Source: a virus (lineage: Duplodnaviria; Caudoviricetes). Taken from it: 64,000 bases of DNA. The notes beneath the pieces are model-generated. The model saw only the letters and a list, made by a program, of their open reading frames with translations. It ran no database searches and was not told the DNA's origin. This document shows positions 29,457 to 31,549 of this stretch, piece after piece. Position 1 is the first letter of the stretch. Every line of letters starts with the position of its first letter. The stretch is taken from positions 128,001 through 192,000 of the IMG/VR virus record IMGVR_UViG_3300048861_000178; one strand, 5' to 3'. Both the position numbers and the translations under genes were made by a program.

Positions 29457-30188
29457 ATGCCCTTGGTATTGCCTAATTTAAACGAATGGGTTCTGCAAGA
29501 AACCAAGAACAAAGATGGTAAAGAGTTCATGCTGATCACCCACTTGAAAGAGTCGGGTAATACTCACGAGCTTCGCCCTTTGGAACAGTTCAAGCAGGAG
29601 ATGGAAGATGGGGAACCTTTCCCCCTCAACTTGATTATCGAGGACGGTGAGATCCGTAAGCGGACCGCCACCGACCCTTTGCCTCACAATGACGCAGAGC
29701 CTGTCAAAGGGCTGGAAGATTATTTCATGGTCACACGGAACGGGGATTTGTATTCCGTGCGCACCAATCGCGTCGTTTCGCAGAACATTCTCGGCAACGG
29801 CTATCTCGGCCACGTCACGAAGATTGGCGGGCGAGAAGGGCAGAATCGTGCGATTAAGACCAGTCGCGCGGTCGCAGAGGCTTTCATTCCTAATCCGGAT
29901 AATAAGCCCGTCGTCAATCACCTCAGTGGGGTGAAGCTCGACAACCGAGAAACAAATCTTGAATGGGCAACCTATCAAGAGAATTCGATTCACGCTGTGG
30001 AAACCGGACTCATTAAGTTTCCGCAGGGTCCCGATATGCATAATGCCAGATTTACGGCAGAACAAGTGCGCGAGATTCGTGAATTGCGTCAGACGAAAGG
30101 TCCTCGTGAACTTGGTCGAATGTTTGATTGCGACCATACCACGATAATGGATCTGTGTAGCGGTAAGACCTACGGCAACGTAACGTAA
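29457..30188 (+). CDS. HNH homing endonuclease (NUMOD4-HNH type)
   Basis: RAVAEAFIPNPDNKPVVNHLSGVKLDNRETNLEWATYQENSIHA; C-terminal HTH. Confidence 0.9.
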   Translation: MPLVLPNLNEWVLQETKNKDGKEFMLITHLKESGNTHELRPLEQFKQEMEDGEPFPLNLIIEDGEIRKRTATDPLPHNDAEPVKGLEDYFMVTRNGDLYSVRTNRVVSQNILGNGYLGHVTKIGGREGQNRAIKTSRAVAEAFIPNPDNKPVVNHLSGVKLDNRETNLEWATYQENSIHAVETGLIKFPQGPDMHNARFTAEQVREIRELRQTKGPRELGRMFDCDHTTIMDLCSGKTYGNVT

Positions 30189-30206
30189 TATATATGCACC
30201 GGTTTT

Positions 30207-30288
30207 GGGGAGGTGCCTGAGTGGTTAAAAGGGCCGGACTGTAAATCCGGTGGCTCTGCCTTCGTGCGTTCAAATCGCACCCTCCCCA
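30207..30288 (+). tRNA. tRNA-Tyr(GTA)
   Basis: ggggagg/cctcccc acceptor, ccgga-ctGTAaa-tccgg, long variable arm, TTCAAAT loop. Confidence 0.92.
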
Positions 30289-30306
30289 CAATCCTGTTTC
30301 ATCTGG

Positions 30307-30382
30307 TCCGAAATAGCTCAGTCGGTAGAGCGGCGCCCTGTTAAGGCGTAGGTCCCTGGTTCGAGCCCAGGTTTCGGAGCCA
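30307..30382 (+). tRNA. tRNA-Asn(GTT)
   Basis: tccgaaa/tttcgga, gcgcc-ctGTTaa-ggcgt, encoded CCA. Confidence 0.95.
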
Positions 30383-30408
30383 AGAATTCTGTTGTACCTG
30401 TTTCAATG

Positions 30409-30541
30409 TCCAGCGTAGCTCAGTTTGGAAGAGCGCCCGTAGTTCCCCCGGTTCGAATCCGGGCTTCCCAGTATTGGGAAGTGGTGGAGATGGTATACAC
30501 AGACGGGAGGTCACACGTTCGATTCGTGTCGCTTGGAACCA
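30409..30541 (+). ncRNA. double-elbow tRNA-like RNA without anticodon
   Basis: tRNA body with CCA whose anticodon loop is replaced by T-arm, capped acceptor and D-arm. Confidence 0.75.
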
Positions 30542-30565
30542 TCCTTTTACCGTTGTACTTCAGTG

Positions 30566-30691
30566 TCCGCAGTAGCTCAGTTGGTAGAGCGCCGTCACCC
30601 GAGTGGGCCCACCTACCGGCCAGGTAGGGTGGACTCTCCCACTCACCAACCAGACGGAGGTCGTTGGTTCGATACCAACCTGACGGAACCA
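30566..30691 (+). ncRNA. tRNA-like RNA with a long hairpin in place of the anticodon loop
   Basis: D arm gctcagttggtagagc, ccgtc/gacgg stem enclosing ~56 nt, T arm gttgg-ttcgata-ccaac, CCA. Confidence 0.75.
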
Positions 30692-30708
30692 GTTTTAGTA
30701 GTAACTGT

Positions 30709-30790
30709 GTCCTGTTCGTCTAGCGGCCTAGGACCTATCTTCACGATGAGTGAAGAGAACAACGGGGGTTCGAATCCCTCACGGGACCCA
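30709..30790 (+). tRNA. atypical tRNA-Glu-like RNA with distorted anticodon arm
   Basis: gtcctgt/acgggac, Glu-type D arm gtctagcggcctaggac, 7-bp tcttcac/gtgaaga stem with 5-nt loop. Confidence 0.6.
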
Positions 30791-30804
30791 AGTTTTGTTG
30801 TACT

Positions 30805-30881
30805 GTAGTCGGGGGTCAGCCGGGACTGACGTCGGTCTAAACCACCGGAGACGCAGGTTCGACACCTGTCCGACTACATCA
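30805..30881 (+). tRNA. atypical tRNA-like RNA (8-9 bp acceptor, loop CTAAACC)
   Basis: gtagtcgg/ccgactac, gtcag/ctgac D stem, tcggt/accgg, gcagg-ttcgaca-cctgt. Confidence 0.6.
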
Positions 30882-30934
30882 CGTATTTAGAGTGAATCGA
30901 CTTGCTGTAGCAAGATTCAGGCGAGTTTCGCCTG

Positions 30935-31314
30935 TGACTCCGTGACTCACGATTAGCGGAGGTACCTACGTGTGGACGAGATCGCGTTTGCGCGCGAAGG
31001 GTGCCACGAATCGTACGACTGGTGACGCAAACACCAGTAAGTTGTTTGTTTCCAGTACCGATACTGCGTCTAGTCTCGCTTCTTCGCGATTCGTTGGTAA
31101 CCGGGGTAACCCGACGTGCCAGCCCGGAGTTGTTACGCCCGTCTTCCTTGTGCGGCCGTTACGGGACTTGTTCGCCTAGTGGCGCCTGCGGTTTTCACCG
31201 CGGCCGCTGCGTCTACGTCGGACTGGGAATGCGCAGCCGGGTGTACTTACTTGCTGGGATGGCCACCCTGTCTGGTAAGTATAGTCGGAAGTGCATTCGA
31301 GTCGCATAGAGTCA
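30935..31314 (+). ncRNA. putative ~380-nt structured ncRNA
   Basis: ends pair (tgactc-cgtgactc with gagtcgc-ata-gagtca); internal stems; no credible ORF. Confidence 0.5.
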
Positions 31315-31368
31315 AAGCTTTTGCTTATCCCTGTCCACAGGACTTTGCAATCGACGCTTCAGGTATCG

Positions 31369-31398
31369 GAGGAGAGCTTCGGCTCTCCTCTTATGCCG
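31369..31398 (+). terminator. hairpin + TTATGCCG element
   Basis: gaggagagc-ttcg-gctctcctc-ttatgccg. Confidence 0.7.
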
Positions 31399-31549
31399 TT
31401 CTTTCGAGCACGGCGAGAAAATGCCGTTGTTTCGAGGGAATGTGATTTTTACGCACTGGGCACTTCGTATGGGTAAGCTACTACCCGCACATGAGAGGGC
31501 GCAAAGCCCCGCATTAGTCGTTACTCTACAATTGTTACAAGGAACTGAA

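What the first reader, a model, noticed from the sequence alone, without database searches (positions are those of the whole stretch)
30409..30541. Double-elbow tRNA: a circularly permuted tRNA module inserted in place of the anticodon loop
Seen: the outer tRNA has acceptor tccagcg/cgc(t)tgga-A-CCA, D arm gctcagtttggaagagc, stem cccgt/acggg and T arm acacg-ttcgatt-cgtgt. Inside that stem, in permuted order, lie a second T arm (cccgg-TTCGAAT-ccggg, 30447-30463), a 7-bp acceptor-like stem closed by a GTAT loop (cttccca/tgggaag) and a second D arm (gtg-gagatggtata-cac). The RNA has two elbows, one CCA end and no anticodon. Established: the T-arm, capped-acceptor, D-arm order is the layout of the tRNA-like domain of bacterial YrlA Y RNAs. 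Inference: a non-decoding tRNA mimic, possibly a decoy for anticodon nucleases, tRNA-sensing defences or modification enzymes.
Basis: partly seen in the sequence, partly recalled or inferred. Interest (0 to 1): 0.8.

Follow-up and report, generated by a model that had tools for sequence, protein, structure and literature searches.

The report
Two-headed, anticodon-less phage tRNA mimic
A giant soil phage makes a 133-base RNA built as one complete tRNA with a second, back-to-front tRNA body where the anticodon loop should be. The design is conserved in many phages, almost certainly cannot read codons, and keeps the bases that the valine-charging enzyme recognises, so it probably works by imitating a tRNA.

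Summary
Window 30409-30541 (+) folds into the described double cloverleaf as its minimum-energy structure.

- **Conservation.** Compensatory changes support the fold in eight relatives (98% of cells paired, 20 of 36 pairs changed on both sides, 0 of 500 shuffles as good). A second, unrelated lineage of 16 sequences also supports it. Relatives include Burkholderia phage FLC9 and other nucleus-forming jumbo phages.
- **Context.** It lies in the phage tRNA operon, with the same spacers as the real tRNAs. Next to it is a sister RNA that carries a hairpin instead of the inner tRNA.
- **Not a known family.** It fails the Rfam tRNA and YrlA models. The phage has no Ro60, and I found no paper describing the design.
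- **New detail 1.** All anticodon-less RNAs of this clade share a 1-2 nt bulge in the 3' acceptor strand.
- **New detail 2.** They keep an invariant A-C exactly where tRNA positions 35-36 would lie, plus A73 and G45. That is most of the valine identity set. U33 and purine-37 are not kept.

My reading is a non-decoding, valine-type tRNA mimic that engages ValRS or another tRNA-body binder. The structure is near certain; the function is inferred. A defence decoy is the main rival and a spliced intron is unlikely.

This scan had already flagged similar two-headed RNAs in other jumbo phages (AI notes, unchecked).

The parts
30409..30415 (+). outer acceptor stem, 5' strand (TCCAGCG)
   Evidence: Pairs with 30530-30532 and 30534-30537. 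4 of 7 pairs change on both sides among homologues.
30418..30434 (+). outer D arm (GCTC-AGTTTGGAA-GAGC) with A14, G15, G18 and G19
   Evidence: The stem is paired in 100% of cells.
30436..30440 (+). shared 5-bp 'anticodon' stem, 5' strand (CCCGT)
   Evidence: Pairs with 30503-30507. 3 of 5 pairs change on both sides.
30441..30446 (+). inner variable loop (AGTTCC); its last C is the inner position 48
   Evidence: Inner 15:48 is G:C or A:U in 12 of 13 double-elbow RNAs read.
30447..30463 (+). inner T arm (CCCGG-TTCGAAT-CCGGG)
   Evidence: Nearly unchanged in the two orthologues, identical in L009 and differing at one T-loop base in L444.
30464..30481 (+). inner acceptor-like 7-bp hairpin (CTTCCCA / TGGGAAG) capped by GTAT
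   Evidence: 5 of 7 pairs change on both sides. In the closest relative the closing pair changes A-U to C-G and the cap changes to GTTA.
30484..30500 (+). inner D arm (GTG-GAGATGGTATA-CAC) with A14', G15', G18' and G19'
   Evidence: 16 of 17 bases are identical in L009 b1.
30498..30502 (+). CACAG, in the register of tRNA positions 34-38; A35 = 30499, C36 = 30500
   Evidence: N-A-C at this register is invariant in 14 of 14 a/b/c RNAs of the clade and 9 of 9 in other jumbo-phage lineages.
30503..30507 (+). shared stem, 3' strand (ACGGG)
30508..30529 (+). outer variable loop AGGTC (G45, C48) and outer T arm (ACACG-TTCGATT-CGTGT)
   Evidence: 4 of 5 T-stem pairs change on both sides.
30530..30541 (+). 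outer acceptor 3' strand CGC-T-TGGA with bulged T at 30533, discriminator A at 30538, encoded CCA at 30539-30541
   Evidence: The bulge sits at the same site in all a/b/c RNAs of the clade. It is absent from the ordinary tRNAs.
30566..30691 (+). sister RNA ('type a'): the same bulged tRNA body, with a hairpin where the inner tRNA sits in b, and AACCA at positions 34-38
   Evidence: Conserved in FLC9, RP12, FLC1-1B, L009 and L444.

Best explanation
**What it is (shown).** A genuine, selected, non-coding RNA of about 133 nt. It sits in the phage tRNA gene cluster, separated from its neighbours by the same kind of short spacers as the tRNAs, so it is presumably made and trimmed with them by the host tRNA-maturation enzymes. 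It folds as two tRNA 'L' shapes that share one 5-bp stem. The outer body is complete and has a free ACCA end. The inner body is circularly permuted and its acceptor end is closed by a tetraloop.

**What it does (inferred).** It does not decode. It acts by molecular mimicry of a tRNA body. The whole clade of anticodon-less RNAs keeps A35, C36, A73 and G45 while U33, N34, N37 and N38 drift. The partner I think most likely is therefore the host valyl-tRNA synthetase. The RNA is either charged with valine or binds the enzyme as a poor substrate. The clade-specific acceptor bulge and the second head would keep it out of normal translation.

**Likely origin (inferred).** A tandem tRNA dimer that lost one anticodon stem-loop. 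This would explain why the loop remnant lies on the 3' side.
For: **Structure**
- The minimum-energy fold equals the proposed structure.
- Both modules are called tRNA by ARAGORN (relaxed 90% threshold) after de-insertion or un-permutation.
- Covariation in 8 homologues, and in an independent lineage on a sequence-only alignment: 95.4% of cells paired, 13 pairs changed on both sides, 0 of 500 shuffles as good.
- The inner tertiary 15:48 pair switches between G:C and A:U.

**Selection**
- The orthologue in a phage whose DnaB is only 52% identical keeps the inner module almost letter for letter, while the outer helices change by compensation.

**tRNA-operon context**
-.

**Non-decoding**
- No 7-nt loop with U33. 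The triplet is buried in the inner D stem.
- Neither ARAGORN in normal mode nor the Rfam tRNA model detects it.

**Valine signature**
- ARAGORN with introns allowed reads Val (cac, tac or aac) in 5 of the 8 double-elbow RNAs it called; G003 b1 came out Phe(gaa), L444 b1 Gly(ccc), and two FLC9 RNAs were not called.
- N-A-C is in register in 23 of 23 RNAs of these lineages while the neighbouring positions vary.
- A73 is present throughout the clade.
- The valine identity set is A35, C36, A73, G20, G45 and a regular acceptor helix (PMC9976931, read).
- ARAGORN found no ordinary tRNA-Val in the tRNA regions examined of the window, FLC9, L009, L444, RP12 and FLC1-1B, and the phage has no class Ia synthetase of its own.
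Against: - There are no expression, processing or charging data.
- In this RNA the CAC is base-paired in the inner D stem, so A35 and C36 may be inaccessible.
- G20 is absent.
- The acceptor bulge lies near base pairs 4-5, where E. coli ValRS is sensitive to irregularities (PMC9976931). Charging may therefore be poor.
- Similarity of the outer body to known tRNAs is not specifically valine; Asn, Met, Ile, Thr and Val score alike.
- Other double-elbow lineages (d-type, L337, L012) lack the A-C signature, so the architecture itself does not depend on it.
- The A-C could be read by another protein or serve a structural role.
Confidence: 0.4

Rival explanations
1. Decoy or pseudo-substrate for a host tRNA-targeting defence or toxin. 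Candidates are an acceptor-end nucleotidyltransferase of the MenT/AbiE kind, a T-loop or acceptor-stem tRNase, or a nuclease that docks on the tRNA body. The RNA would offer two T-arm/acceptor heads and one CCA end but no cleavable anticodon loop, and would soak up the enzyme.
For: - Most members of this 'tRNA' cluster are non-decoding mimics; only Tyr and Asn are normal.
- The ordinary tRNAs these phages carry include Tyr, Asn, Asp and His, the set cleaved by colicin E5-type nucleases (own knowledge).
- Several diverged paralogues exist per phage, and the region is mosaic and fast-changing, as expected in an arms race.
- A weak RNA-ligase-like gene is present in the phage (RLIG1, 28.8 bits).
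- RNA mimics that trap defence proteins are known, for example RNA anti-CRISPRs (own knowledge).
Against: - No target is known.
- Nothing in the sequence points to a particular nuclease.
- Decoys of turnover enzymes must be very abundant.
- The invariant A35-C36 is not explained unless the target is specific for tRNA-Val.
Confidence: 0.25
2. Y-RNA-like scaffold. The inner permuted tRNA module works as in YrlA, recruiting or gating an RNA-decay or RNA-repair protein other than Ro60. The outer tRNA merely gives stability and processing, as a natural 'tRNA scaffold'.
For: - The module order is the same as the YrlA tRNA-like domain (PMC4201824).
- The inner module is the most sequence-conserved part in two lineages.
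- tRNA scaffolds are known to stabilise inserted RNAs (Ponchon and Dardel 2007, own knowledge).
Against: - The phage has no TROVE/Ro60, RtcB, Rnl2 or CCA-adding enzyme.
- No conserved RNA-binding gene lies next to the stand-alone d-type copies.
- No YrlA match covers the inner module, and the best in the region score 21.9 and 16.1 bits against a cut-off of 69.
Confidence: 0.12
3. An intron-bearing tRNA-Val. The 55-nt tRNA-shaped insert is cut out and the exons are rejoined, giving a decoding tRNA. This would resemble the 'enigmatic' tRNA introns reported in Lak megaphages, one of which may itself encode a tRNA.
For: - ARAGORN with introns allowed predicts Val with the insert at position 33.
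- The paralogues b2 and c have a canonical-looking 7-nt remnant, AUUACAA or GUAACAA.
- ARAGORN found no ordinary tRNA-Val in the tRNA regions examined.
- Precedent in print: PMC6784885.
Against: - The inner module is permuted and capped, so RNase P and RNase Z have no ends to cut at the insert borders.
- There is no group I intron hit and no bulge-helix-bulge motif (the latter read by eye only).
- U33 and purine-37 are not conserved. This RNA would give UACACAG, and the type a RNAs have C33 and C37.
- The insert itself is under structural selection.
- No RtcB, Rnl2 or T4 Rnl1 ligase was found; the Rnl1 search was uninformative because its control found no match in any control genome.
Confidence: 0.07
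4. A neutral by-product: a decaying tandem tRNA duplication or recombination scar with no function.
For: - The architecture can arise from a tandem tRNA dimer by two small deletions (inference). One member, L476, still looks like a near-perfect internal duplication.
- The region is mosaic and lies next to an HNH homing endonuclease.
Against: - Compensatory changes occur in all seven helices.
- It is retained across phages with 52% DnaB identity.
- There are independent lineages, and stand-alone copies in small phages that have no other tRNA.
- The inner tertiary pair covaries.
Confidence: 0.04

Closest known systems
YrlA (Y RNA-like A, Rfam RF02553), the tRNA-mimicking Y RNA of bacteria and some phages (Chen et al. 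2014, PMC4201824)
   Same: - It contains a circularly permuted tRNA-like domain in the order T arm, loop-capped acceptor-like stem, D arm.
- It keeps the elbow nucleotides and a covarying 15:48 pair.
- It is non-decoding.
   Different: - In YrlA the 5' and 3' ends form a Ro60-binding helix, and the gene sits beside rsr.
- Here the permuted module is closed by the anticodon stem of a complete second tRNA with its own CCA end.
- The phage has no Ro60.
- No YrlA match covers the inner module, and the best in the region score far below the family cut-off.
Lak megaphage tRNAs with 'enigmatic introns', one predicted to encode a tRNA (Devoto et al. 2019, PMC6784885)
   Same: - A phage tRNA gene interrupted in the anticodon region by a tRNA-shaped insert.
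- The insert sequence is highly conserved.
   Different: - The Lak host tRNA keeps a normal anticodon and was read as an intron-bearing tRNA.
- Here the insert is permuted and capped, and no canonical loop remains.
- The structure as a whole is under selection.
Valine-accepting tRNA-like structures of tymoviruses (TYMV TLS-Val; PMC9976931)
   Same: - A viral, non-decoding tRNA mimic.
- It keeps A35 and C36 of a valine anticodon and a CCA end.
- It tolerates large inserted stem-loops.
   Different: - TLS-Val is a pseudoknotted 3' end of an RNA virus genome of plants.
- This is a free small RNA of a DNA phage with true acceptor, D and T arms plus a second tRNA body.
- Charging has not been shown here.
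Engineered tRNA scaffolds (anticodon loop replaced by a cargo RNA; Ponchon and Dardel 2007, own knowledge) and T4 stable RNAs C and D in the T4 tRNA cluster
   Same: - A tRNA body carries a foreign structured insert at the anticodon position.
- It is a stable RNA of unknown role encoded among phage tRNAs.
   Different: - The scaffolds are artificial.
- T4 rnaC and rnaD do not fold as double cloverleaves.

Membership tests
tRNA (Rfam RF00005) | Cloverleaf with acceptor, D and T arms and elbow nucleotides | tested here: met
   The outer module has all of them. The de-inserted outer module is called a tRNA by ARAGORN at a relaxed 90% threshold.
tRNA (Rfam RF00005) | 7-nt anticodon loop with U33 and a free anticodon | tested here: not met
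   A 62-nt insert lies between the stem strands. The last 7 nt are UACACAG, with A at position 33 and the CAC paired in the inner D stem.
tRNA (Rfam RF00005) | Detected by the family model or a standard tRNA finder | tested here: not met
   There is no RF00005 hit at the gathering score or at E<=10, and no ARAGORN call in normal mode. Some other double elbows do pass RF00005 as a tRNA with an insert.
YrlA (Rfam RF02553) | Permuted order: T arm, capped acceptor-like stem, D arm | tested here: met
   Inner module 30447-30500, compared with the YrlA consensus printed.
YrlA (Rfam RF02553) | Score at or above the gathering threshold (69 bits) | tested here: not met
   No hit covers the inner module. 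The hits of 21.9 and 16.1 bits each span the T arm of one gene and the D arm of the next.
YrlA (Rfam RF02553) | Ro60-binding helix formed by the RNA ends, and a neighbouring rsr (TROVE) gene | tested here: not met
   The ends form a tRNA acceptor stem. PF05731 is absent from the 315-kb phage record, which is 98% complete.
Intron-containing tRNA (group I, bulge-helix-bulge, or Lak-type) | A recognisable splice motif, and a canonical loop restored after excision and conserved among orthologues | tested here: not met
   No group I match. No bulge-helix-bulge motif was seen by eye; no dedicated search was run. The restored loops lack U33 or purine-37 in most members. The insert is permuted and capped.
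Valine-identity tRNA or tRNA-like structure (functional class) | A35 and C36 in register with the anticodon stem | tested here: met
   Bases 30499-30500. Invariant in 23 of 23 RNAs of these lineages.
Valine-identity tRNA or tRNA-like structure (functional class) | A73 and G45 | tested here: met
   A at 30538. The variable loop AGGTC gives G45. A73 is present in all clade members.
Valine-identity tRNA or tRNA-like structure (functional class) | G20 and a regular A-form acceptor helix | tested here: not met
   The D loop has A at position 20. The acceptor 3' strand carries a bulged T between the third and fourth pair from the T-stem side, that is between 5:68 and 4:69.
Valine-identity tRNA or tRNA-like structure (functional class) | Aminoacylation with valine | not testable with these tools
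   Needs an in vitro charging assay or acid-gel northern blots.
tmRNA | G3:U70 alanine identity and a tag reading frame | tested here: not met
   The 3:70 pair is C:G. There is no ARAGORN tmRNA call.

The most novel reading that the evidence does not exclude
Jumbo phages encode a dedicated class of chargeable but non-ribosomal 'two-headed' tRNAs. These would be valine-identity mimics that the host ValRS loads. Their bulged acceptor stem and second tRNA body would exclude them from EF-Tu and the ribosome. They could then serve as an aminoacyl carrier for a phage process, or as a regulator or sponge of ValRS or of tRNA-sensing defences. That would make them a DNA-phage counterpart of plant-virus TLS-Val.
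Probability: 0.25. Interest if true: 0.85.

Novelty: new variant of a known kind. Interest (0 to 1): 0.7.

Why it matters
- **Unexplained phage RNAs.** Phage tRNA clusters are usually read as codon-usage helpers or as spare parts against anticodon nucleases. Here four of the six 'tRNA' genes cannot decode. One of them is a precisely built double tRNA that recurs in many phage lineages.
- **A new architecture.** If it is a functional mimic, it adds one to the short list of natural tRNA mimics (YrlA, tmRNA, viral TLS, T-box ligands).
- **A testable handle.** The valine identity bases and the bulged acceptor stem point to which host tRNA-binding machine large phages manipulate.
- **A tractable system.** Phage FLC9 on Burkholderia glumae is cultured and carries two such RNAs.
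- **Annotation.** These genes are currently missed or mis-called by annotation pipelines.

Tried and rejected
- **Ro60/YrlA system.** No TROVE gene, and no YrlA match covers the inner module.
- **RNA-repair context.** No RtcB, Rnl2 or CCA-adding enzyme. The T4 Rnl1 search was uninformative because its control found no match in any control genome. Only a weak partial RLIG1 hit turned up at G000 101,226-101,804.
- **Phage-encoded ValRS or other class Ia synthetase.** None.
- **T4 rnaC and rnaD as homologues.** Different folds.
- **phiKZ.** No double elbow with model R1.
- **Protein partner by gene neighbourhood.** Around the stand-alone d-type copies I found only SSB, a DNA methylase, HNH and unknowns.
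- **Cellular homologues.** The pattern hits in CPR bacteria are a tRNA-Ile followed by a duplicated 3' half, which looks like an attachment site, and not double elbows.
- **Isotype from body similarity.** Ambiguous between Asn, Met, Ile, Thr and Val.
- **Fold energy as evidence.** Not significant (z = -0.82).
- **Orthologue-specific metagenome pattern.** No hit.
- **Cultured-phage BLAST.** It finds only the ordinary tRNAs.
- **'ACCA-end mimic' reading of the type a linker.** I first read it this way, then replaced that with the simpler positions 34-38 register.
- **Literature.** No description of a tRNA-in-tRNA mimic beyond the Lak 'intron' remark.

Full report
**1. What is in the sequence**

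Window 30200-30880 (+) is a compact RNA gene cluster that follows an HNH endonuclease ORF (29457-30188; Pfam HNH_3). It holds:
- tRNA-Tyr and tRNA-Asn;
- the flagged RNA 'b' (30409-30541);
- a second odd RNA 'a' (30566-30691);
- a Glu-type body with a closed anticodon arm (30709-30789);
- an odd cloverleaf (30805-30878).

RNAfold returns exactly the proposed double cloverleaf as the minimum-energy structure. The energy is not unusual for this composition (z = -0.82), so the case has to rest on comparative evidence.

Seven T-loop cores lie on one strand within 600 nt for six genes. The extra one is the inner T arm. ARAGORN (run at a relaxed 90% threshold) calls both modules a tRNA when the insert is replaced by a filler loop, or when the inner module is un-permuted. 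It does not call the native RNA. Rfam gives no family at the gathering score or at E<=10.

**2. The genome and its relatives**

The window is part of a 315-kb IMG/VR phage record. Its DnaB-like helicase is 96% identical to that of Burkholderia phage FLC9. It is 52% identical to that of a 324-kb IMG/VR phage (locus L009), and 48-49% identical to Ralstonia phages RP12 and FLC1-1B.

I built a covariance model (R1) and searched with it. Double-elbow RNAs turned up in several places:
- two near-identical phages (L214, L215);
- L009, with three paralogues (b1, b2, c);
- FLC9, with b and c;
- a metagenome contig, L444, with b1 and c.

Window b is the orthologue of L009 b1 and L444 b1. Between these phages the inner module is almost unchanged. 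The outer acceptor, the shared stem and the outer T stem differ by compensatory changes. In the closest relative four substitutions cluster in the inner cap and keep the pairing: A-U becomes C-G, and GTAT becomes GTTA.

**3. Covariation**

On the eight b/c sequences:
- 98.2% of cells are paired;
- 20 of 36 pairs change on both sides;
- no shuffle out of 500 reaches the observed values;
- sliding the partners drops the score from 0.517 to at most 0.10;
- every one of the seven helices, including the inner acceptor (5 of 7 pairs), has compensatory changes.

One caveat applies. This alignment was fitted to the model, and some rows are paralogues.

An independent lineage ('d-type') has 16 distinct sequences. 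On a sequence-only MAFFT alignment it gives 95.4% of cells paired, 13 pairs with double changes and 0 of 500 shuffles as good.

The inner tertiary pair 15':48' is G:C in eight RNAs, A:U in four and mismatched in one. Chen et al. used the same argument for YrlA (PMC4201824).

**4. How widespread it is**

A restrictive DNA pattern found double elbows of several designs in IMG/VR and metagenome contigs.
- Many lie inside the tRNA clusters of 120-440-kb phages.
- Some have a fully canonical inner D arm (145-178 nt; L345, L336, L482).
- Some are stand-alone in 20-60-kb phages with no other tRNA.

Hits in bacterial genomes were a tRNA-Ile followed by a duplicated 3' half, not this RNA. Within these limits the design looks phage-specific. 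The only cultured carrier I found is FLC9. phiKZ has none.

**5.

*(a) The acceptor bulge.* All anticodon-less RNAs of the FLC9/L009 clade (types a, b and c) carry one or two extra nucleotides at the same place in the 3' acceptor strand, after the third pair from the T stem. The ordinary tRNAs of the same phages and the other double-elbow lineages do not.

*(b) The valine-type signature.* With introns allowed, ARAGORN reads five of the eight double-elbow RNAs it called as tRNA-Val (cac, tac or aac) with the insert at position 33; G003 b1 and L444 b1 came out Phe and Gly, and two FLC9 RNAs were not called. I tabulated the five bases just 5' of the stem's 3' strand, which correspond to positions 34-38.
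- They read N-A-C-N-N in 14 of 14 a/b/c RNAs of the clade.
- They read the same in 9 of 9 double elbows of other jumbo-phage lineages.
- Positions 32, 33, 34, 37 and 38 vary.

A73 is invariant in the clade, and the variable loop AGGTC supplies G45. A35, C36, A73, G20, G45 and a regular acceptor helix are the valine identity set (Giegé and Eriani 2023, PMC9976931). A35 and C36 are also the determinants of the TYMV valine-accepting tRNA-like structure. ARAGORN found no ordinary tRNA-Val in the tRNA regions examined of these phages, and this phage has no class Ia synthetase.

Several points count against over-reading this:
- G20 is missing.
- The bulge lies where E. coli ValRS dislikes irregularities.
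- In window b the CAC (30498-30500) is also the 3' strand of the inner D stem.
- Body similarity is not specifically valine.
- The d-type lineage lacks the A-C.

**6. Interpretation**

*Shown.* This is a conserved, structured, tRNA-operon-encoded RNA with two tRNA bodies, one CCA end and no usable anticodon loop.

*Inferred.* It is matured like a tRNA and acts as a mimic. The partner best indicated by the sequence is ValRS, through charging or binding. The bulge and the second head would keep the RNA out of translation.

*Rivals.*
- **A defence decoy.** This is attractive because the cluster is dominated by non-decoding mimics, the paralogues diversify and the locus is mosaic.
- **A Ro60-independent Y-RNA-like scaffold.**
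- **A spliced intron.** This is unlikely. The insert is permuted and capped, U33 and R37 are not kept, and no splice motif was found and none of the RtcB, Rnl2 or Rnl1 ligase families.
- **Junk.** This is contradicted by the covariation.

A plausible origin is a tandem tRNA dimer that lost one anticodon stem-loop. That would place the remaining loop bases on the 3' side, as observed. One member (L476) still looks like an internal duplication.

**7. Comparison and novelty**

The inner module has the topology of the YrlA tRNA-like domain, but the RNA fails every other YrlA criterion. [quoted passage not shown] Three recently described bacterial tRNA-mimic families are different RNAs. Searches of PMC and bioRxiv found no description of this architecture.

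Earlier AI notes of this same scan had already flagged similar two-headed RNAs, and a valine-type reading, in other jumbo phages. I treated them as leads and tested them on this family. I classify the finding as a new variant of a known kind (natural tRNA mimics), with high confidence in the structure and moderate-to-low confidence in the proposed partner.

Noticed in passing
window 30566-30691 (+): Sister RNA 'type a'. It has the same bulged tRNA body and ACCA end, but the anticodon loop is replaced by a long hairpin followed by a single-stranded ACCAACCA. It is conserved in FLC9, RP12, FLC1-1B, L009 and L444, always with N-A-C at positions 34-36. L444:1740-1819 is a minimal version with an 8-nt loop, TTGCCACT.
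   Followed up: partly
window 30709-30789 and 30805-30878 (+): Two more aberrant tRNA-like genes. One is a Glu-type body whose anticodon arm is a 7-bp stem with a 4-5-nt loop; its relatives in FLC9 and L009 are normal tRNA-Glu. The other is a cloverleaf with a non-canonical D arm and a CTAAACC loop. Four of the six genes in the cluster cannot decode normally.
   Followed up: partly
window 30150-30400 compared with L214 and L215: The locus is mosaic. The Tyr and Asn genes are visibly more diverged from the otherwise near-identical phages than the adjacent b+a block, which is almost unchanged. The window alone has an HNH endonuclease ORF (29457-30188) at the junction, which suggests homing-associated gene conversion.
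   Followed up: partly
window 30185-30200; L003 2470-2487: A motif (A/G)TATATGCA lies about 10 nt upstream of tRNA-Tyr. It is kept in the window, FLC9 and G003 although the flanks differ, so it is a candidate phage promoter for the RNA operon. No sigma-70-like promoter was found. Spacers before each RNA share a GTAGTA/TTGTAC-like motif.
   Followed up: no
window 30890-31400 (+): About 500 nt without a convincing ORF lie after the RNA cluster. The stretch ends in a GC hairpin followed by TTATGCCG (31361-31400). The hairpin plus TTTATGCCG recurs at the same place in FLC1-1B, RP12, L009 and L444.
   Followed up: no
L019, L021, L024, L033, L038 and many others: Many viral contigs carry tRNA-like genes in which the D arm is joined almost directly to the T arm, with no anticodon arm at all. 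This is another unexplained class of truncated tRNA mimics.
   Followed up: no
L337:1111-1231 (same sequence as L460:1056-1176): One double-elbow RNA, from a 271-kb phage contig, has a G3:U70 pair and A73 in its outer acceptor stem. That is the alanine identity set, so at least this member could be charged without an anticodon.
   Followed up: no
L343:679-976 (-): A permuted (two-piece) tmRNA (Rfam RF04321, 64 bits) lies directly beside a double-elbow RNA (L343:527-648) in a 123-kb phage contig.
   Followed up: no
L539 6208-6343 (phiKZ 269557-269692): The 89-nt 'tRNA-Asn' annotated in phiKZ is preceded by what looks like the 5' half of another Asn-type tRNA. It may be another composite tRNA-like gene.
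   Followed up: no
L371, L372, L374, L389, L397, L402 (Saccharibacteria/Patescibacteria contigs): A tRNA-Ile(TAT) is followed, after about 25 nt, by an exact copy of its own 3' half. This looks like an integration scar that recurs in CPR genomes.
   Followed up: no
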